Below are positions 3,501 through 57,526 of a DNA stretch of 64,000 bases, in pieces; the first letter of the stretch is position 1; each line of letters begins with the position of its first letter. The translations under genes and the position numbers were made by a program. Location of the stretch: assembly GCA_038087875.1 (NCBI GenBank), contig CM075996.1, forward strand, positions 2,978,001-3,042,000, given 5' to 3'. The notes beneath the pieces were generated by a model. That model was not told the origin of the DNA. It did no database searches and saw nothing but the letters and a program-made list of their open reading frames with translations. Source of the stretch: Malacoraja senta (taxonomy: Eukaryota).

Positions 3501-6500
3501 TTGACCCGCTGAGTTACTCCAGCATTTTTTGTCTGTCTTCACTTTAAACCAGGGTCTACAGTTCCTAACTACTCACTTGCAGTTCAGTTTAGTTTATTGT
3601 CACGTGTACCGAGATGCAGTGAAAAGCTTTTTGTCGCGTACTGTACTATCCAGTCAGCGGGAAGATTATACATGATTTTAATCGAGCCATCCACAGTGTA
3701 CAGAAACATGATAAGGGGATAACATTTACTGCAAGTAGAGCCCAGTGAAGTCCGATTAAAGATAGTCTGAGGGTCACCAAAGAGGTAGATAGTAGTTCAG
3801 CACTGCTCTCTGGTTGTGGTAGGATGGTTCAGTTGTCTGATAACAGCTGGGAAGAAACTGTCCCTGAATCTGGAGGTGTGTGCGTTCGTTTTCACACTTC
3901 TGTACCTTTTTCCCGATGGGAGAGGGGAGAAGAGGGAGTGGCCGGGGTGAGACTGGTCCTTGATGATGCTGCTGGCCTTGCCGAGGCAGCGTGAGGTGTA
4001 GATGGAGTCGATGGAAGGGAGGTTGGTTTGTGTGTGACGGTCTGGGCTGCGTCCACAATTCTCTGCGATTTCTCGTGGGTCTTGGATGGAGCTGTTCCCA
4101 AACCGTGCTGTGATGCGTCCCGAGAAAATGCTTTCTCCGGCGCACCGGTAGAAGTTGGCGAGAGTTGTTGGGGACATGCCGAACTTCCTAAGGCATTGGT
4201 GTAACTTTCTTGGTCGTTGCTTCCATAACACTAGAGGTGTAAACCGAAGTTTAGACACAAAATGCTGGAGTAACTCAGTGAGACAGGCTGCATCTCTGGA
4301 GAGAAGGAATGGGTGACGTTTCGGGTCGAGACCCTTCGAGATGCTGCCTGTCCCGCTGAGTTACTCCAGCTTTTTGTGTCTATCTTCGGTTTAAACCAGC
4401 ATCTGCAGTTCCTTCTTACACAGCACTCAGGCTGTTATTCATCGATTACAGCTCGGCATTTAATACAATCATCCCCTCCAAGCTGGTTACCAAACTCGCA
4501 GAACTGGGTCTCTGCGCATCCCTCTGCAATTGGATCCTCGACTTCCTCACTCTCAGACCACAGTCTGTTCGTATTGGTGGAAATGTGTCAGACTCTATAA
4601 CAATTAGCACGGGAGCACCTCAAGGCTGTGTGCTCAGCCCCCTGCTGTACTCACTCTATACTCATGACTGCGTAGCCGGACATAGTGCGAACTCCATCAT
4701 CAAGTTCGCTGATGACACCACTGTTGTGGGACGTATCACTGATGGGGATGAGTCAGAGTATAGAAGAGAGATCGAGCAACTGTCCATATGGTGCCAGCAC
4801 AATAACCTGGCCCTCAACACCAGCAAAACCAAGGAACTGATTGTGGACTTTGGAAGGAGTAGGATGGGGACCCACAGTCCCGTTTATATCAACGGGTCGA
4901 TGGTTGAAAGGGTCAAGAGCTTCAAATTCCTGGGCGTGCACATCTCTGAAGATCTTTCCTGGTCCGAGAACAATGATGCCATTATTAAGAAAGCACATCA
5001 GCGCCTCTACTTCCTGAGAAGATTACGGAGAGTCGGTTTGTCAAGGAGGACTCTCTCTAACTTCTACAGGTGCACAGTAGAGAGCATGCTGACCGGTTGC
5101 ATCGTGGCTTGGTTCGGCAACTTGAGTGCCCTGGAGAGGAAAAGACTACAAAAAGTAGTAAACATTGCCCAGTCCATCATTGGCTCTGACCTCCCTTCCA
5201 TCGAGGGGATCGATCGCAGTCGCTGCCTCAAAAAGGCTGGCAGCATCATCAAGGACCCACACCATCCTGGGCACACACTCATCTCCCTACTACCTTCAGG
5301 TAGAAGGTACAGGAGCATGAAGACTGCAATGACCAGGTTCAGGAATAGCTACTTCCCCACAGCCATCAGGCTATTAAACCTGGCTCGGACATAACACTGA
5401 ACTTTACTAGCCAATACTGTTATTTGCACTTTATCAGTATATTGACCATTGTGTATATATTTATAGAATGCCTTGTAGTCAATGCCTACTATGTTCTGTT
5501 GTGCTCAAGCAAAGCAAGAATTTCATTGTCCTACCAGGGACACATGACAATAAACTCACTTGACTTGACTTGACTTAGAGATGTGCTCATTGAGGCTGCT
5601 TTCCCTCTGCAGCCCACAGTTAAGAATTGAGGTCTGCCAGCAGAGGGCAGAAGTGAGTGGTGCTGTGTTTTTTTTTTAGAGTTTTAGACATTCAGCATGA
5701 GAACAGGCCCATGGAACCATTGATGGCATTGATATGCTGGCCACAGGTCAGGTCTTCAGGCGCAGCCAGGGAGTTGCTGCCTTACAGCGCCAGAGACCCA
5801 GGTACTATCGCAAGGGTGTCAGGGGTAACGGGGAGAAGGCAGGAGAATGGGGTTGAGTGGGAGAGATAGATCAGCCATGATTGAATGGCGGAGTAGACTT
5901 GATGGGCCGAATGGCCTAATTCTGCTCTGAAAACGTATGAAGAAAACCTCCAATGGAAGTTGAAGATAGACAGAAGTTTTAGATGATCAGCCATGAGGAG
6001 CTCCGGTATGCGCTGACTGCCGACAACAACACCGACACCTCCGGGCTGCGGGTCTGCGGAGCGACCAGCCGCGGGCGGCGGCGCCGACTTTAACATCGGG
6101 AGCCTCGTGGCTCCAACTCGGCGCGGCCCTGTCGGCTTCAGCTGCCATCGACTCCGCTGGGAAACCGGCCGTTCCAGCCGCTGCGAGGACTCTCCCGATG
6201 GCCAGGAACATCGGGCCTCCGTAGAGGCAACTGTGGAGGCCTCATTGGGCCTGACTCTGGGGAGAACTGGGTTGGGGACTGGACATTGTGCCTTCCCCCA
6301 CAGTGGTGGTCATTGTGGGGGGATGATTTTTGTGTGCTGTGCCTGTTAGTCCGTGTACAAGATGGCGGTCGGAGGGGAGAGTGGACGCTGGCGCGAATTG
6401 GTCGCCACTGCTCTCTCCTCAAATTGTGTTTCTTATTTTCTTTTGGTGCTTTTGAAATTGAATTCTGTCCTTGATTTGTGTATTGTGGTGTTTTTATATT

Positions 6501-12500: not shown

Positions 12501-14016
12501 AATGGCCTCATCCTGCACCTATTTTCTATGTTTCTATGTTTTTAATAAAATATAAACTAAAGGTGCAGCGTGGAAACAGGCCCTTCTGTCCATCGATTAC
12601 CCGTTCATGCTAGTTTCTACCTTATCCCATTTTCTCATCCACTCACTCCCTGCGCACTTGGGGGCGGTTTACAGAGGGGCCGATTAACCTACGTTGCCGC
12701 ATGTCTTTGGGACGTGGGAGGAAACCGGAGAGCCCGGAGGAAGCCCACGCGGTCACGGGGAGAACGTGCAAATCTCCGCACGCGGACAGCACCCGAGGTC
12801 GGGATCGAACCCGGGTCTCTGGCGCTGCGAGGCAGTGGCACTACCCGCTGTGCCACCGGGCCCGCACGTTCTGGCCTGTGTCTGAACAGGAGGGATAAGA
12901 GCGCTGGAACAAAGCCGTGCTCTTTGGAGGTGAGGGCGGCACGATGGCGCAGCGGTAGAGACCCAGGTTCGATCCTGACTACGGGTTCTGTCTGTACGGA
13001 CTTTGTGCGATCTCCCGCTGACCGTGTGGGTTTTCTCCGAGATCTTCGGTTTCGTCCCGCACTCCAAAGACGTTTAGGTTTGTAGGTTAATTGGCTTTGG
13101 TATAAATGCAAAATTGTCCCTGGTGTGTGCAATTGTCCTTAGTGTTCAGTGATCACTGGTCCATGTGGACTTGATGGGCCGAAGGGCCTGTTTCCACGCT
13201 GTATCTTCCATTACATTAATCTTCCATTACATTAGCCCTTAGAGCTTCTCCTTCTTCTTGCGTATGGCGTGCACAGCCTAAAGTTGTAGGATAACTTGTT
13301 CTATTTGATCTTATTTGATTGTGCATGATTGCATATGTCGAAACAGGGTGGACCACGTGAAGGTTGCAATCTCCCAACATGCCCTTAGGGCTAAAGGAAT
13401 CAAGGGAAAAACTGGGCTTGTATAGACTGGAATTTAGAAGGATGTGAGTGGACCTTATTTAAACATATAAGATTATTAAGGGATTGGACACGCTAGAGGC
13501 AGGAAACATGTTGCTGATGTTGGAGGAGTCCAGAACCAAGGGGCCACAGTTTAAGAAAAAGGGGTAAGCCATTTAGAACGGAGATGAGGAAAAACGATTT
13601 CACCCAGAGAGTTGCGAATCTGTGGAATTCTCTGCCTCAGAAGGCAGTGGAGGCCAATTCTCTGGATGCTTTCAAGAGAGAGTTAGATAGAGCTCTTAAA
13701 GTTAGTGGATATGGGGAGAAGGCAGGAACGGGGTACTGATTGTTGATGATCAGGCATGATCACAGTGAATGGCGGTGCTGGCTCGAAGGGCTGAATGGCC
13801 TATTCCTGCACCTATTTTTCTATTTCTATAAGAGAGATTAATTAATCCCTGACTCAAACGAGCTTGAACAATACAGCACAGGAACAGTGCTTTATAAGTG
13901 GCATAGCGTTGATAGGTGTGAACAAGGACAGTCTTACCCTCCTCTGTCTGGTGGACAAGGCTGAGGACGAGAGCGGAATATATCCCAACGTAGACAGCTC
14001 TTCCTTTAGCAAACAT
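422..14016 (-). CDS. csf2rb: Cytokine receptor common subunit beta (IL-3/IL-5/GM-CSF receptor beta c), 5' part; 8 coding exons: 14016-13938, 12178-12037, 9664-9507, 8175-8018, 7177-6985, 3382-3244, 1749-1592, 570-422; continues beyond the left edge
   Basis: Exons join in frame (1176 nt = 392 codons) with intron phases 1,2,1,0,1,2,1,0, the class I cytokine receptor pattern repeated twice. Two tandem cytokine-receptor homology modules: D1 '[15 protein letters not shown]', D2 '[14 protein letters not shown]', D3 '[20 protein letters not shown]', D4 '[20 protein letters not shown]'. These resemble human beta c ([35 protein letters not shown]). Confidence 0.9.
1300..1566 (+). mobile_element. HER1/CR1-type LINE 3' end
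   Basis: [19 protein letters not shown] tail followed by GGGCCGAAGGGCCTGTTTCC, the tail shared with the SINEs. Confidence 0.75.
1592..1749 (-). CDS. csf2rb: csf2rb exon, D3 second half (TQVCNSTV...HGCNIHV...YEVSLQ...PYRN)
   Basis: Acceptor ctctttaccag|, donor A|GTGAGT, 158 nt, phase 2 to 1. Confidence 0.88.
1818..2257 (+). mobile_element. CR1 LINE 3' fragment
   Basis: C-terminal ORF2 peptide ([14 protein letters not shown]...GYGEKAG) and TTCTATG tail. Confidence 0.9.
2265..2482. mobile_element. PIF/Harbinger-type MITE (~218 bp)
   Basis: TIR TGGGCCTGTCCCACTTAGGCGA / TCGCCTGATTGGGACAGGCCCA, flanked by TAA and TTA; TIR related to the 34351 element. Confidence 0.75.
3244..3382 (-). CDS. csf2rb: csf2rb exon, D3 first half ([25 protein letters not shown]...[11 protein letters not shown])
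   Basis: Acceptor ttcctccacag|, donor GA|GTAAGT, 139 nt, phase 1 to 2; not in the ORF track. Confidence 0.92.
3580..4225 (-). mobile_element. Rex1/Babar LINE 3' fragment
   Basis: Degenerate [17 protein letters not shown]...[18 protein letters not shown]...[11 protein letters not shown] plus 3'UTR with AATAAACTAAAC tail. Confidence 0.85.
4425..5576 (+). mobile_element. Rex1/Babar LINE, 5'-truncated, with open RT C-terminal part (ORF 4585-5394)
   Basis: [24 protein letters not shown] motifs; 3'UTR ending AATAAA plus (TTGAC)n. Confidence 0.92.
5990..6618 (+). mobile_element. Unclassified GC-rich non-autonomous retroposon with L2-like 3' tail
   Basis: CpG-rich body, T-rich spacer, tail GTAAGGTGTCCTTGGG...GAAAGGCGCC..AAATAAAAT(ATT)n. 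Confidence 0.5.
6985..7177 (-). CDS. csf2rb: csf2rb exon, D2 second half with WSAWS motif
   Basis: Acceptor tcttctgcag|, donor G|GTAACG, 193 nt, phase 0 to 1; YAARVRARP...[10 protein letters not shown]. Confidence 0.9.
8018..8175 (-). CDS. csf2rb: csf2rb exon, D2 first half ([22 protein letters not shown]...[13 protein letters not shown])
   Basis: Acceptor caaccttcag|, donor GAG|GTAAGG, 158 nt, phase 1 to 0; FN3 pattern; not in the ORF track. Confidence 0.9.
9135..9495 (+). mobile_element. Penelope-like element 3' terminal fragment (pLTR)
   Basis: Encodes EQHLIF...[11 protein letters not shown] (GIY-YIG C-terminus-like), pyrimidine tract, then CTGAAGAAGGGTCTCGACC hammerhead-like motif. Confidence 0.75.
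9507..9664 (-). CDS. csf2rb: csf2rb exon, D1 second half (HHLCNRTES...[13 protein letters not shown]...FNLLDN)
   Basis: Acceptor caccatttag|, donor A|GTAAGT, 158 nt, phase 2 to 1. Confidence 0.85.
9913..10436 (+). mobile_element. CR1 LINE 3' fragment (young subfamily)
   Basis: [21 protein letters not shown]... and TTTCTATG tail; near-identical to 15873-16410. Confidence 0.9.
10515..11040 (+). mobile_element. Penelope-like pLTR with a nested second hammerhead-bearing unit
   Basis: [13 protein letters not shown] peptide; motifs at about 10587-10617 and 10912-10940. Confidence 0.7.
12037..12178 (-). CDS. csf2rb: csf2rb exon, D1 first half ([24 protein letters not shown]...FVTGAP)
   Basis: Acceptor catactttag|, donor AG|GTTCAT (weak), 142 nt, phase 1 to 2, C-x9-CxW motif. 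Confidence 0.85.
12560..13205. mobile_element. Head-to-head pair of HE1/V-SINE-type SINEs (minus 12560-12860, plus 12933-13205)
   Basis: tRNA-like head (A box TGGCGCAGCGG, B box GGTTCGATCC), V-domain TCCGGTTTCCTCCCACA, LINE-shared tail. Confidence 0.8.
13247..13380 (-). mobile_element. Short non-autonomous Ingi/Vingi-like retroposon with HDV-like ribozyme fold at its 5' end
   Basis: 12-bp TSD GCCCTTAG(A/G)GCT (13235-13246 / 13381-13392); 3' end ...GCCATACGCAAGAAGAAG; 5' P2/P3/P1 pairing pattern (see findings). Confidence 0.7.
13938..14016 (-). CDS. csf2rb: csf2rb first coding exon (signal peptide [26 protein letters not shown])
   Basis: ATG at 14016, hydrophobic stretch, phase-1 donor G|GTAAGA at 13937; candidate acceptor upstream at 14089 (tgttgttgcag|). 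Confidence 0.8.
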
Positions 14017-15872: not shown

Positions 15873-18800
15873 GAAACATAGAAACATAGAAACATAGAAA
15901 TTAGGTGCAGGAGTAGGCCATTCGGCCCTTCGAGCCTGCACCGCCATTCAATATGATCATGGCTGATCATCCAACTCAGTATCCCGTACCTGCCTTCTCT
16001 CCATACCCTCTGATCCCTTTAGCCACAAGGGCCACATCTAACTCCCTCTTAAATATAGCCAATGAACTGGCCTCGACTACCCTCTGTGGCAGAGAGTTCC
16101 AGAGATTCACCACTCTCTGTGTGAAAAAAGTTCTTCTCATCTCGGTTTTAAAGGATTTCCCCCTTATCCTTAAGCTGTGACCCCTTGTCCTGGACTTCCC
16201 CAACATCGGGAGCAATCTTCCTGCATCTAGCCTGTCCAACCCCTTAAGAATTTTGTAAGTTTCTATAAGATCCCCTCTCAATCTCCTAAATTCTATAGAG
16301 TATAAACCAAGTCTATCCAGTCTTTCTTCATAAGACAGTCCTGACATCCCAGGAATCAGTCTGGTGAACCTTCTCTGCACTCCCTCTATGGCAATAATGT
16401 CCTTCCTCAGATTTGGAGACCAAAACTGTACGCAATACTCCAGGTGTGGTCTCACCAAGACCCTGTACAACTGCAGTAGAACCTCCCTGCTCCTATACTC
16501 AAATCCTTTTGCTATGAAAGCTAACATACCATTCGCTTTCTTCACTGCCTGCTGCACCTGCATGCCTACTTTCAATGACTGGTGTACCATGACACCCAGG
16601 TCTCGCTGCATCTCCCCTTTTCCTAGTCGGCCACCATTTAGATAATAGTCTGCTTTCCTGTTTTTGCCACCAAAATGGATAACCTCACATTTATCCACAT
16701 TATACTGCATCTGCCAAACATTTGCCCACTCACCCAGCCTATCCAAGTCACCTTGCAGTCTCCTAGCATCCTCCTCACAGCTAACACTGCCCCCCAGCTT
16801 AGTGTCATCCGCAAACTTGGAGATATTGCCTTCAATTCCCTCATCCAGGTCATTAATATATATTGTAAATAGCTGGGGTCCCAGCACTGAGCCTTGCGGT
16901 ACCCCGCTAGTCACTGCCTGCCATTGTGAAAAGGACCCGTTTACTCCTACTCTTTGCTTCCTGTTTGCCAGCCAGTTCTCTATCCACATCAATACTGAAC
17001 CCCCAATGCCATGTGCTTTAAATTTGTATACTAATCTCTTATGTGGGACCTTGTCGAAAGCCTTCTGGAAGTCCAGATACACCACATCCACTGGTTCTCC
17101 CCTATCCACGCTACTAGTTACATCCTCGAAAAATTCTATAAGATTCGTCAGACATGATTTACCTTTCGTAAATCCATGCTGACTTTGTCCAATGATTTCA
17201 CCAGTTTCCAAATGTGCTGCTATCCCATCTTTAATAACTGACTCTAGCAGTTTCCCCACTACCGATGTTAGACTAACTGGTCTGTAATTCCCGTTTTCTC
17301 TCTCCCTCCATTCTTAAAATGTGGGGTTACGTTTGCTACCCGCCAATCCTCAGGAACTACTCCAGAATCTAAAGAGTTTTGAAAGATTATTACTAATGCA
17401 TCCACTATTTCTGGAGCTACTTCCTTAAGTACTCTGGGATGCAGCCTATCTGGCCCTGGGGATTTATCGGCCTTTAATCCATTCAATTTACCCAAAACCA
17501 CTTCCCGACTAACCTGGATTTCACTCAATTCCTCCAACTCCTTTGACCCGCGGTCCCCTGCTATTTCCCGGCAGATTATTTATGTCTTCCTTAGTGAAGA
17601 TGGAACCAAAGTAGTTATTCAATTGGTCCGCCATATCCTTGTTCCCCATGATCAACTCACCTGTTTCTGACTGCAAGGGACCTACATTTGTTTTAACTAA
17701 TCTCTTTCTTTTTACATATCTATAAAAACTTTTGCAGTCAGTTTTATGTTCCCTGCCAGTTTTCTTTCATAATCTATTTTTCCTTTCCTAATTACGCCCT
17801 TTGTCCTCCTCTGCTGGTCTCTGAATTTCTCCCAGTCCTCCGGTATGCTGCTTTTCTGGCTAATTTGTACGCATCATCCTTCGCTTTAGATACCATCCCT
17901 GATTTCCCTTGTTATCCACGGATGCACTACCTTCCCCGATTTATTCTTTTGCCAAACTGGATGAACAATTTTTGTAGTTCATCCATGCAGTCTTTAAATG
18001 TCTTCCATTGCATGTCCACCGTCAACCCTTTTAGAATTAATTGCCAGTCAATCTTGGCCAATTCACGTCTCATACCCTCAAAGTTACCTTTCTTTAAGTT
18101 CAGAACCATTGTTTCTGAATTAACAATGTCACTCTCCATCCTAATGAAGAACTCAACCATATTATGGTCACTCTTGCCCAAGGGGGCACGTACAACAAGA
18201 CTGCTAACTAACCCTTCCTCATTACTCAATACCCAGTCTAAAATAGCCTGCTCTCTCGTTGGTTCCTCTACATGTTGATTTAGATAACTATCCCGCATAC
18301 ATTCCAAGAAATCCTCTTCCTCAGCACCCCTGCCAATTTGATTCACCCAATCTATATGTAGATTGAAGTCACCCATTATAACTGTTTTGCCTTTGTCGCA
18401 CGCATTTCTAATTTCCTGTTTGATACCATCTCCAACTTCACTACTACTGTTAGGTGGCCTGTACACAACACCCACCAGCGTTTTCTGCCCCTTAGTGTTT
18501 CGCAGCTCTACCCATACCGATTCCACATCCTCGAACCTAATGTCCTTCCTTTCCATTGCGTTAATGTCCTCTCTAATCAGCAACGCTACCCCACCTCCTT
18601 TTCCTTTCTCTCTATCCCTCCTGAATATTGAATATCCTGGATGTTCAGCTCCCAGCCTTGGTCACCCTGGAGCCATGTCTCCGTGGTCCCAACTATATCA
18701 TAGTCATTAATAGCTATCTGCACATTCAACTCATCCACCTTATTACGAATGCTCCTTGCATTGAGACACAAAGCCTTCAGGCTTGTTTTTACAACACTCT

Positions 18801-54424: not shown

Positions 54425-55856
54425 ATAGAAACATAGAAACATAGAAAATAGGTGCAGGAGGAGGCCATTCGGCTCTTCGAGCCAGCACCGCCATTCATTG
54501 CGATCATGGCTGATCGTCCCCAATCAATAACCCGTGCCTGCCTTCTCCCCATATCCCTTGATTCCACTAGCCCCTAGAGCTCTATCTAACTCTCTCTTAA
54601 ATCCATCCAGTGATTTGGCCTCCACTGCCCTCTGTGGCAGAGAATTCCACAAATTCACAACTCTCTGGGTGAATTTTTTTTTTCTCACCTCAGTCCTAAA
54701 TGGCCTTCCCTTTATTCTAAGACTGTGGCCCCTGGTTCTGGACTCACCCAACATTGGGAACATTTTTCCTGCATCTAGCTTGTCCAGTCCTTTTATAATT
54801 TTATATGTTTCTATAAGATACCCCCTCATCCTTCTAAACTCCAGTGAATACAAGCCTAGTCTTTTCAATCTTTCCTCATATGGCAGTCCCGCCATCCCAG
54901 GGATCAATCTCGTGAACCTACGCTGCACTGCCTCAATCACAAGGATGTCCTTCCTCAAATTAGGAGACCAAAACTGTACGCAATACTCCAGATGTGGTCT
55001 TACCAGAGCCCTATGCAACTGCAGGAGAACCTCTCTACTCCTATACTGAAATCCTCTTGTTATGAAGGCCAACATTCCATTAGCTTTCTTCACTGCCTGC
55101 TGTACCTGCATGCCAACTTTCAGTGACCGGTGTACAAGGACACCCAGGTCTCGCTGTACCTCCCCCTTACCTAACCTAACCCCATTGAGATCATAATCTG
55201 CCCCCTTGTTTTTGCCACCAAAGTGGATAACCTCACATTTATCTATATTATACTGCATCTGCCACGCATCTGCCCACTCACTCAACCTGTCCAGGTCCCT
55301 CTGCAACCTCCTAACATCCTCTTCACAGTTCACACTGCCACCCAGCTTTGTGTCATCCACAAACCTGCTGGTGTTGCTCCTAATTCCCTCTTCCAAATCA
55401 TTAATATATATGGTAAACAGTTGCGGCCCCAACACCAAGCCTTGCGGCACTCCACTCGCCACTGCCTGCCATTCTGAAACGGACCCGTTCACTCCTACTC
55501 TTTGCCTCCTGTCTGCCAACCAATTTTCTATCCACGTCAACACCCGACCCCCAATACCATGTGCTCTAATTTTAGTCACCAGTCTCCCGTGCGGGACCTT
55601 ATCAAAGGCTTTCTGAAAGTCTAGATACACTACATCCACTGGCTCCCCTTCATCCATTTTACTTGTCACATCCTCAAAAAATTCCAGAAGATTAGTTAAG
55701 CATGATTTTCCTTTCATAAATCCATGCTGACTTGGACTAATCCTTTTCCTGCTATCCAAATGCCCCATTATTACCTCTTTAATAATTGACCCCAGCATCT
55801 TTCCCACCACCGAAGTCAGGCTAACTGGTCTGTAATTCCCCGTTTTCTCTCTCGCT
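54425..55856 (-). mobile_element. CR1 LINE 3' part with open 428-aa RT ORF
   Basis: QHGF, DFQKAFD, GVPQG, FVDD variant, tail (TTTCTATG)n. Confidence 0.95.
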
Positions 55857-57526
55857 CCATTCTTTTACCCGTACTACACAAGAATCCTTCTATTTCCACC
55901 TTCAAAATATCCATTGACTTGGCCTCCACGTCTGTCTGTGGCAATGAATTCCACAGATTCACCACCCTCTGACTAAAGAAATTCCTCCTCATCTCCTTCC
56001 CAAAGGAACGTCCTTTAATTCTGAGTCTGGTCCTGGATCCTCCCACTAGTGAAAACATCCTCTCCACATCCACTCTATCCAGGCCTTTTACGATTCGGTA
56101 AGTTTCAATGAGGTCCGCCCCCCCTCACCCTTCTAAACTCCAGCGAGTACAGGCCCAGTGCCGTCAAACGCTCATCATATGTTAACCCACTCATTCCTGG
56201 GATCATTCTCGTAAACCTCCTCAGGACTCTCTCCAGAGCCAGCACATCCTTCCTCAGATATGGGGTCCATAACTGCTCACAATACTCCAAATGTCACCTT
56301 GTAGTATCAGCATCACATCCCTGTTTTTTTTGTATCCTAGTCCTCATTGGCATTGCGTTTGCCTTCTTTACTACCGATATGACTTACGGATTAACTTCTT
56401 GCGAATCCTGCACCAGCGCTCCCAAGTCCCTTTGCACCTCTTATTCTGAGTGTTGGCTGCCGAAAGAATCCATAAAGAATGGGTCGACTGGGCTTATATT
56501 CACTGGAATTTTAGAAGGATGAGAGGGTATCTTATTGAATCATGTAAAATTATTAAGGGATTGGACAGGCTAGATGCAGGAAAAATGTTCCCCATGTTGG
56601 GAGAGTCCAGAACCAGGGGTCACAGTTTGAGAATAAGGGGTAGGTTCAAGGTATTTTTTTTTTTTAAATTAGTCACATTCACATACACCCAGGTGTAGTG
56701 AAGTGAAATGCTTTTTGCATTTAGGACTGAGTAGACCATGGTAGACCATTTAGGACTGAGACGAGGAAAAACCTTTTCACCCTGAGAGTAGTGAATCTGT
56801 GGAATTCTCTGCCACAGGAGGCCAATACACTGGATGTATTCAAGAGAGAGTTGGATGTAGCTCTTAGGACTAACGGAATCAAGGGATATGGAGAGAAAGC
56901 AGGAACGGGTTACTGATTCTGGATGATCAGCCATGGTCATATTGAATGGCTCGAAGTGGCCTACTCCTGCACCTATTTTCAATGTTTCCATGACTCTGCT
57001 GCCTGGTTTCCAGGAAGCCAGCATCCAGCATGGTTCTGCAAGCTACAGGCGATCTCTCCAAGGCTGCAGCATATGCTGGTCCGCAGGTCCACTGTAAAAA
57101 TAGAAGCGGTGGTCTTGTTTCTTCCATTGTGTAAGCGCAGTGGAGAAAAGTAAAACTTAAAGGTCAACTACCCACAAGAGAGCCACCTAGCACATTCTCA
57201 GCCGTTTGCTAACTTAATGCCACACACTTACAAAAACATGCGTGCATTCGTGTTAGTATGTATAAACGTGTGCAGAGAGAAGGGGGCAGATTATGTGATA
57301 GACACAAAATGCTGGAGTAACTCAGCGGGACAGGCAGCATCTCTGGAGAGAAGGAATGGGTGACGTTTCGGGTCGAGACCTTTCACCAGACTGAGTCCAC
57401 CTTTCCTTGATCATCGTTGCCTTTTGCATAGCTTTCATTCATTTGTTCTAGTTGCCTTCTATATCTCTCGTACCCCTTTCACCTGACCCTCAGTCTGAAG
57501 AAGGGTTCTCGACCCAAAACATCGGC

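What the first reader, a model, noticed from the sequence alone, without database searches (positions are those of the whole stretch)
13235..13392. Tiny retroposon whose 5' end folds as an HDV-like self-cleaving ribozyme
A ~134-bp minus-strand insert with a 12-bp TSD (one mismatch) and a GCCATACGCAAGAAGAAG tail. Its 5' part reads ATGTTGG GA GATTGCA ACC TTCACGT GGT CCACCCT G TTTCGA CATA TGCAATC. This parses as P2 (GATTGCA 13371-13365 with TGCAATC 13333-13327, 7/7 pairs), P3 (ACC/GGT) closing a 7-nt L3 (TTCACGT), P1 3' strand CCACCCT, a P1.1 G, a minimal UUCG P4 and a catalytic-position C (13337). The ACC-N7-GGT core closely resembles the Pr77 HDV-like ribozyme of trypanosome L1Tc/ingi (ACC UCAACGU GGU). 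The P1 5' strand is degenerate here (5/7 pairs; GGGGTGG or AGGGTGG would pair fully). The rest could form a stem (TGCACA...TGTGCA). It looks like a ribozyme-headed, promoter-less, internally deleted element of an Ingi/Vingi-type LINE; I know of no description of this in chondrichthyans.
Basis: partly seen in the sequence, partly recalled or inferred. Interest (0 to 1): 0.8.

Follow-up and report, generated by a model that had tools for sequence, protein, structure and literature searches.

The report
Self-cleaving ribozyme heading a tiny retroposon
This is a damaged copy of a 140-base jumping element with at least 9,000 copies, made of the two ends of a Vingi-type retrotransposon; its head is predicted to be a minimal self-cutting RNA, and a sister family's head matches the human CPEB3 ribozyme, which likely came from such an element.

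Summary
Confirmed and extended. It is built from nt 1-84 and the last ~45 nt of a 3.1-kb single-ORF APE-RT LINE without RNase H (Vingi-type), found here. The 54-nt head fits a P4-less HDV-like double pseudoknot. Nine related LINE families carry the same fold in different sequences (15 of 18 pairs change on both sides; rows were pre-selected for the fold). Cleavage is untested. The window copy has a broken P1 and is probably dead. Two further leads: (1) a sister family's head passes Rfam's CPEB3-ribozyme cutoff (57-64 bits), and the published Vingi-2_Gav 5' end matches the CPEB3 consensus at 52 of 54 compared positions, so the mammalian ribozyme is likely a domesticated Vingi head; (2) 10 of 52 LINE copies carry the head inverted, suggesting it sits at the integration site. 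Ribozyme-headed deletion derivatives are known (SIDE, NARTc); my searches found none for Vingi.

The parts
13381..13392 (-). 5' target-site duplication (12 bp)
   Evidence: one mismatch to the 3' copy
13374..13380 (-). P1 5' strand, damaged in this copy (family starts GGGGTGG; predicted cleavage just before its first G)
   Evidence: 5 of 7 pairs
13365..13371 (-). P2 5' strand
   Evidence: 7 of 7 pairs; covaries across families
13352..13364 (-). P3 with 7-nt L3 (UUCACGU, same L3 as the Rfam CPEB3 consensus); C at 13359 is the P1.1 partner
13344..13351 (-). P1 3' strand and P1.1 G (13344)
13338..13343 (-). 6-nt loop in place of P4
   Evidence: sister families have a long P4 region here
13334..13337 (-). 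J4/2 with the predicted catalytic C (13337)
   Evidence: C invariant in 10 of 10 aligned heads; C in 95 of 100 listed copies
13327..13333 (-). P2 3' strand; in the LINE the first AUG overlaps J4/2-P2 and is in frame with the endonuclease ORF
13308..13326 (-). rest of the LINE 5' UTR (to LINE nt 84), with the 5' arm of the end-to-end stem; 8 nt deleted in this copy
13295..13307 (-). 13-nt linker not found in the LINE; looks like a partial duplication of the UTR end
   Evidence: origin inferred
13278..13294 (-). last codons of the LINE ORF (L-D-L-Q-L) and stop TAG (13280-13278)
13260..13277 (-). LINE 3' UTR with the 3' arm of the end-to-end stem (13275-13270)
13247..13259 (-). (GAA)n tail
13235..13246 (-). 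3' target-site duplication (12 bp)

Best explanation
The insert is a decayed copy of a ~140-bp element made of the two ends of a Vingi-type LINE, and its 54-nt head likely folds as a minimal HDV-like ribozyme that would cut the RNA just before its first G. Shown: copy number, fixed 5' start, variable duplications, both ends shared with a 3.1-kb APE-RT LINE, and the same fold at the 5' end of related LINE families. Inferred mechanism: a host transcript reads through the element; the head cuts it free at G1; the LINE protein, supplied in trans, binds the 3' end, nicks DNA, primes on the GAA tail and copies the RNA to G1, leaving a 9-15 bp duplication. A short stem between the UTR just behind the ribozyme and the UTR just before the tail likely holds both RNA ends at the integration site, which would explain the repeated birth of two-ended derivatives and the inverted heads. 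The window copy probably cannot cleave.
For: Shared ends: L054 joins the head to the ORF C-terminus; L130 is a near-full LINE with head, tail and an 11-bp duplication. Domains: APE + RT, no RNase H in the family-A pieces or in 6 of 6 long relatives. Fold: my descriptor hit 12 of 49 regions upstream of an APE start, 0 times in 416,201 control bases and in 1 of 4,900 shuffles. A sequence-only alignment of 10 heads puts P1 to P1.1 in one register in 9 rows and nearly so in the tenth; 96% of cells pair, 15 of 18 pairs change on both sides, P1.1 C-G becomes U-A in family D, 0 of 500 shuffles reach this, slid controls pair 39-48%. Independent of my descriptor: Rfam CPEB3 model 64.2, 63.8, 57.1 bits on family C heads and 55.6 on L191, cutoff 35. 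The three positions that differ between subfamilies (8, 32, 45) are unpaired or swap U-A for U-G. At least three more short types with other junctions keep the whole head and both stem arms (25 of 30 loci). End-to-end pairing beats shuffles in 5 of 7 families. P4-less HDV-like ribozymes are active (PMC10879173, section 7 and passages).
Against: No cleavage data; the public runs are contigs and cannot show RNA ends. The family-A head itself scores only 14 bits (E 1.1-1.5) on an Rfam HDV model and is not listed under the CPEB3 model. The 10 aligned heads were chosen by a descriptor that demands pairing, so the pairing rate is partly circular. 37 of 49 upstream regions had no hit; many are visibly truncated or damaged, but L165 and L169 have over 600 nt upstream and no hit. 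Only 12 of 30 unbiased copies keep perfect P1 and P2; 13 fail. For the full 140-nt RNA the pseudoknot-free minimum-energy fold keeps P2 but not P1. The loop replacing P4 could pair the P1.1 G with the catalytic C (by eye). End-to-end pairing is not above shuffles in family B (179/500) or the L191 family (62/500), and family A's 5' window pairs as well with a foreign 3' end. No named Vingi protein was in the tree.
Confidence: 0.8

Rival explanations
1. The head keeps the HDV-like fold but, having lost P4, no longer cleaves; it serves as a protein-binding site, exonuclease shield or internal promoter, and the fixed 5' end comes from transcription start.
For: Pr77 of L1Tc is a promoter that starts at +1 (PMC3185411 passages); the R2 5' pseudoknot binds protein apart from cleavage (PMC6765202 passages); family A has the weakest Rfam match and no P4; within-family C-to-T loss is not clearly under-represented (4 TGAA vs 10 CAAA, and the neighbouring CpG shows a similar 8 vs 15 skew, hand count).
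Against: The catalytic-position C, G1-U wobble and C-G P1.1 are all kept in the LINE and in every amplified short type; P4-less ribozymes cleave. The two roles are not exclusive.
Confidence: 0.13
2. The partner LINE belongs to another single-ORF clade such as RTE, which is already known to carry HDV-like ribozymes and two-ended derivatives.
For: RTE is listed with both traits (PMC5786205 section 23). No named Vingi or RTE protein was available for the tree.
Against: Family A sits in one RNase H-less group (support 0.999) whose nearest fetched outsiders carry RNase H; family C in that group has a head nearly the same as the named Vingi-2_Gav 5' end (by eye); the C-terminus has a CDCG..H..C motif.
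Confidence: 0.05
3. The fold is a chance parse of an ordinary LINE 5' UTR.
For: The window copy alone fails my descriptor and Rfam.
Against: Background of 0 in 416 kb and 1 in 4,900 shuffles, the same position and register in unrelated sequences, and a curated Rfam family passed by sister heads.
Confidence: 0.02

Closest known systems
NARTc, RIME and SIDER of trypanosomatids (L1Tc/ingi clade, Pr77 head)
   Same: Short non-coding derivative of an APE-RT LINE, keeping both ends, headed by an HDV-like ribozyme with a one-pair P1.1 (PMC3185411, PMC4035085 passages).
   Different: Partner lacks RNase H; head is 54 nt without P4 against 77 nt with P4; at least 9,000 copies in a 1.94-Gb genome; activity not assayed here.
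R2 SIDEs of Drosophila
   Same: Ribozyme plus LINE 3' end joined by internal deletion, moved in trans (PMC3414825 abstract).
   Different: R2 is site-specific with a restriction-like nuclease; this element is dispersed, APE-driven, with 9-15 bp duplications.
Non-autonomous Vingi derivatives (Vingi-1_EE) and SINE2-1_AMi / Vingi-2_Gav
   Same: Internal-deletion derivatives of Vingi are described (PMC5786205 passages).
   Different: That paper lists six ribozyme-bearing clades without Vingi and prints the Vingi-2_Gav 5' end without calling it a ribozyme in the passages I saw. The original Vingi paper was not available.
Mammalian CPEB3 ribozyme (Rfam RF00622)
   Same: Same topology, L3 UUCACGU, single C-G P1.1 followed by U; family C and L191 heads pass its cutoff.
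   Different: The family-A head has other helix sequences, no P4, and does not reach that model; CPEB3 is a single intronic copy under host selection.
Minimal HDV-like and theta ribozymes
   Same: No P4, short J1/2, C first in J4/2 (PMC10879173).
   Different: Reported almost only from gut phages and metagenomes; that search covered few eukaryote genomes. Here the motif heads a eukaryotic retrotransposon.

Membership tests
HDV-like ribozyme | Nested double pseudoknot P1, P2, P3, P1.1 in the right order | tested here: met
   21 of 30 best-matching and 12 of 30 unbiased copies perfect; cross-family covariation. Not met by the window copy (P1 5 of 7).
HDV-like ribozyme | Catalytic C at the start of J4/2; G1 wobble at the cut site | tested here: met
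   C in 10 of 10 heads, 95 of 100 copies; first pair G-U in 6 and G-C in 2 of 10
HDV-like ribozyme | Score above an Rfam HDV-type cutoff | tested here: inconclusive
   Family-A head 14 bits against cutoff 44; sister heads pass RF00622; no Rfam hit to a P4-less model was seen
HDV-like ribozyme | Mg2+-dependent self-cleavage lost with C-to-U | not testable with these tools
   needs an assay
Two-ended non-autonomous LINE (SIDE/NARTc type) | 5' and 3' ends shared with an autonomous LINE, no ORF, variable duplications, many copies | tested here: met
tRNA-derived SINE | tRNA-like head with Pol III boxes | tested here: not met
   no tRNA match on the element at E<=10; the head is the LINE 5' end
Vingi clade (partner LINE) | Compact single ORF with APE and RT, no RNase H (definition from PMC13708176 passage) | tested here: met
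   family-A copies are all broken, the intact 1,019-aa relative P0001 is 72% identical
Vingi clade (partner LINE) | RT groups with named Vingi elements, sister to Ingi | tested here: inconclusive
   RNase H-less group 0.999 against RNase H-bearing and window RTs, but no named Vingi, Ingi or RTE protein in the tree; the link to Vingi-2_Gav rests on the head sequence
Pr77-type dual promoter-ribozyme | Internal promoter activity of the head | not testable with these tools
   needs reporter or cap mapping

The most novel reading that the evidence does not exclude
Vingi retrotransposons as a clade start with HDV-like ribozymes, held near the integration site by end-to-end pairing; one lineage shrank to a 54-nt P4-less form that drove about ten thousand tiny copies, and another lineage's head, inserted into a CPEB3 intron of an early mammal, became the human CPEB3 ribozyme.
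Probability: 0.65. Interest if true: 0.88.

Novelty: new variant of a known kind. Interest (0 to 1): 0.74.

Why it matters
It adds a clade to those with ribozyme heads and gives a P4-less HDV-like ribozyme a eukaryotic home with thousands of copies. It offers a testable origin for the CPEB3 ribozyme, studied for its role in memory; the main text of the paper on its ancestry holds none of the strings 'transpos', 'retro' or 'origin' (PMC8233481), and no paper in the library holds both 'Vingi' and 'CPEB3'. Vingi-1 is used as an RNA gene-writing platform with its native 5' UTR kept, and that review mentions ribozymes only for R2; if that UTR also self-cleaves (sequence not seen here) it bears on capping, stability and truncation of such RNAs.

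Tried and rejected
Rfam on the window copy: no ribozyme family. CpG asymmetry as a test of selection on the catalytic C: 10 CAAA vs 4 TGAA, but the adjacent CpG is skewed alike (15 vs 8), so no evidence. Within-family covariation: copies differ by about 5% from the majority, too little to test. Expression: no RNA holder listed; all runs are contigs, so no evidence either way on RNA ends. PDB holds no close relative; best hits are L1 ORF2p and R2. Cluster members gave no element names. Papers not held: Kojima 2011, Ruminski 2011, Webb 2009, and an id guessed for Webb and Luptak 2011; any of them may already link such ribozymes to Vingi-like elements. No short derivative of family C among 10 further head loci. 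Earlier scan findings: none. L002 shares the window copy's target sequence but not its wider flanks, so I read it as a second insertion into the same host repeat.

Full report
Observation. Its neighbours are common repeats of the window, one at 12948-13205 and one at 13405-13829. Every helix coordinate given is right. P1 pairs at 5 of 7 positions in this copy, and Rfam finds no ribozyme on it at E<=10.

A large family. A DNA search of the genome (1.94 Gb) gave 1,323 candidates, 40 scored; a 19-base body motif with one mismatch allowed gives 9,267 hits against 0 for the reversed control. The 29 best other copies start at GGGGTGG or a one-base variant of it and end in (GAA)n; 28 of the 30 have a duplication of 9 bp or more. 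In 30 copies taken by position, 29 reach the G-run, 22 have such a duplication, and mean distance to the majority is 5.5%. Four public runs from four coded organisms hold the element with the same two boundaries (contigs only).

The partner. A pattern asking for the head followed by other sequence gave 41 hits; among the 30 fetched, L054 joins the head to the C-terminal 440 bp of a LINE ORF. Walking upstream (500 candidates for the 3' end; 47 for the mid-ORF) led to near-full copies of about 3.1 kb (L124; L130 with head, tail, an internal gap and an 11-bp duplication). The ORF holds APE and RT domains and no RNase H. All family-A copies I read are broken, about 90% alike; an intact 1,019-aa relative is 72% identical. 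The short element is LINE nt 1-84, a 13-nt linker, then the last five codons, stop, 3' UTR and tail. Of 30 loci picked for the LINE-type UTR (215 hits), 14, 10 and 1 are three further short types with other junctions and 5 are longer LINE pieces. Five of the 14 are near-identical neighbours on one contig. So deletion derivatives arose at least four times and all kept the head.

Clade. The genome holds several related families, some with open frames of 986-1,014 aa. Six long ORFs tested have APE and RT only; five more distant metagenome ORFs have RNase H. In an RT tree of 40 rows the 32 RNase H-less rows form one group (FastTree support 0.999) against those five and three RTs from the window. 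A compact single ORF without RNase H, sister to Ingi, is the definition of Vingi given in PMC13708176 (passage). No named Vingi, Ingi or RTE protein was in the tree.

The fold. A compact descriptor (P1, P2, P3, 7-nt L3, P1.1, C..A junction) hit 12 of 49 regions upstream of an APE start, 150-230 nt before it, and never in 416,201 control bases; 1 of 4,900 shuffles hit. The misses include truncated and damaged copies, but also L165 and L169, which have long upstream regions. Ten heads (two of family A, four other families of this genome, four metagenome loci) aligned by sequence alone share one register from P1 to P1.1, one row shifted at its start. On the named structure 96% of cells pair, 15 of 18 pairs change on both sides, and P1.1 C-G is U-A in family D; none of 500 shuffles reaches this and slid structures pair at 39-48%. 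The rows were chosen for pairing, so the independent support is their position, the low background, and Rfam: family C heads score 64.2, 63.8 and 57.1 bits and L191 55.6 on the CPEB3 ribozyme model (cutoff 35), L243 25.2; the B, D, E, L180, L187 and family-A heads were not listed (11 loci scanned). The family-A head alone gives 14 bits on another HDV model. It is the smallest, 54 nt, with six bases where the others have a P4 region. P4-less HDV-like ribozymes are active and were found almost only in phages (PMC10879173: section 7 and passages).

Mechanism. Shown: shared ends, fixed start at the base where an HDV-like ribozyme would cut, duplications, tail. From established work: such ribozymes free L1Tc, NARTc and R2 SIDE RNAs from co-transcripts (PMC3185411 and PMC4035085 passages, PMC3414825 abstract, PMC6765202 passages). 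Inferred: read-through transcription, cleavage at G1, copying by the LINE protein in trans. A promoter role is not excluded. P1 of CPEB3 is the most mutation-sensitive helix (PMC9901934 passage), so the window copy is probably inactive.

The head at the integration site. Of 60 LINE loci, 52 are distinct elements once the query and seven repeats of a locus are dropped; 10 carry the head inverted at their 5' junction. The inverted piece begins at RNA nt 72-87 in 8 of the 10 and runs back to nt 5-18; in 9 of the 10 the sense part starts hundreds of bases further on. Six of nine checked have a duplication of 8 bp or more, five overlapping the inverted piece by 2-8 bases, as expected if the second DNA strand primed on the RNA there (twin priming, recalled from L1). 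Four more were seen among the 30 head loci. Just upstream of that priming zone lies an 8-base arm complementary to the 3' UTR, 10 bp in the main short subfamily. Own-family 5'-3' pairing beats shuffles in 5 of 7 families, with perfect 9- and 10-bp stems of unrelated sequence in two, but not in family B or the L191 family. I rate this stem as likely, not shown.

The CPEB3 lead. The supplement of PMC5786205 prints nt 2-74 of Vingi-2_Gav. By eye it matches the Rfam CPEB3 consensus at 38 of 40 positions from P1 into P4 and 14 of 14 from the end of P4 through P2; the Vingi-derived part of SINE2-1_AMi has the same P4 stem as that consensus. Helix sequences vary freely among Vingi-type heads, so this likeness is hard to explain by convergence. 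The CPEB3 ribozyme is described as conserved in mammals (PMC8233481, abstract start), while CPEB3-type heads occur on LINEs of this genome, a crocodilian and a metagenome contig, which favours element-to-gene direction. Human DNA holds an old Vingi remnant (PMC5753468 passages). I did not examine the mammalian locus.

What is in print. Searches: Vingi + ribozyme, 6 papers, the two relevant ones read in passages and neither assigning a ribozyme to Vingi; Vingi + CPEB3, 0; twin priming + HDV-like + non-LTR, 0; further listings. The library lacks most subscription papers, patents and Repbase reports, and four key papers could not be read. HDV-like ribozymes from lamprey, lancelet and sea urchin are known (PMC8256844 passage) and may be such heads. 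The supplement of the 2026 bioRxiv survey (main text searched) was not seen and could hold such ribozymes.

Verdict. A real feature and a new variant of a known kind. The wider leads raise the interest.

Noticed in passing
L153:486-569, L155:471-554, L158:3507-3590, L191:3264-3347: Heads of a sister LINE family (C) and of a metagenome element pass Rfam's CPEB3 ribozyme cutoff; family C is young (96-98% between copies) with open frames over 1,000 aa.
   Followed up: partly
L284 and L292, around position 1490-1580: Another CPEB3-type head with its own P4 and downstream sequence, probably a further family.
   Followed up: no
L152 and L154, about 160-260 nt before the APE start: Tandem 26-nt repeats of the ribozyme's 5' half at the start of two family C copies, suggesting repeated template jumps at the 5' end.
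   Followed up: no
L080, L081, L085, L087, L088, L091, L093, L099, L112, L119, L295, L299, L301, L313: LINE copies with the ribozyme head inverted at the 5' junction.
   Followed up: yes
L124 and L130, first 200 nt of the LINE: The first AUG lies inside J4/2-P2 and is in frame with the endonuclease ORF; ribozyme folding and translation start may compete.
   Followed up: no
L123 (L066): Head plus 109 nt joined to the LINE 3' part through about 70 foreign bases that end in the reverse complement of the short element's linker.
   Followed up: no
L001-L030, L244-L273: The base before G1 is T in 15 of 30 and 16 of 28 copies; target choice or cleavage preference.
   Followed up: no
window 13377-13380: The four altered 5' bases are the reverse complement of bases 43-46 of the same copy and allow a 9-bp hairpin; possibly a fold-back event, possibly chance.
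   Followed up: no
L131-L148, L160: Family B ends in a (TAAA)n tail with almost no 3' UTR, unlike the (GAA)n of the other families.
   Followed up: no
L037-L043; L317-L321: Short copies repeated with their flanks in tandem segmental duplications, so hit counts overstate insertions slightly.
   Followed up: no
window 4360-5391 (+), 15979-17313 (-), 54527-55864 (-): Open frames with reverse-transcriptase fragments of other LINE types, used as outgroups.
   Followed up: partly
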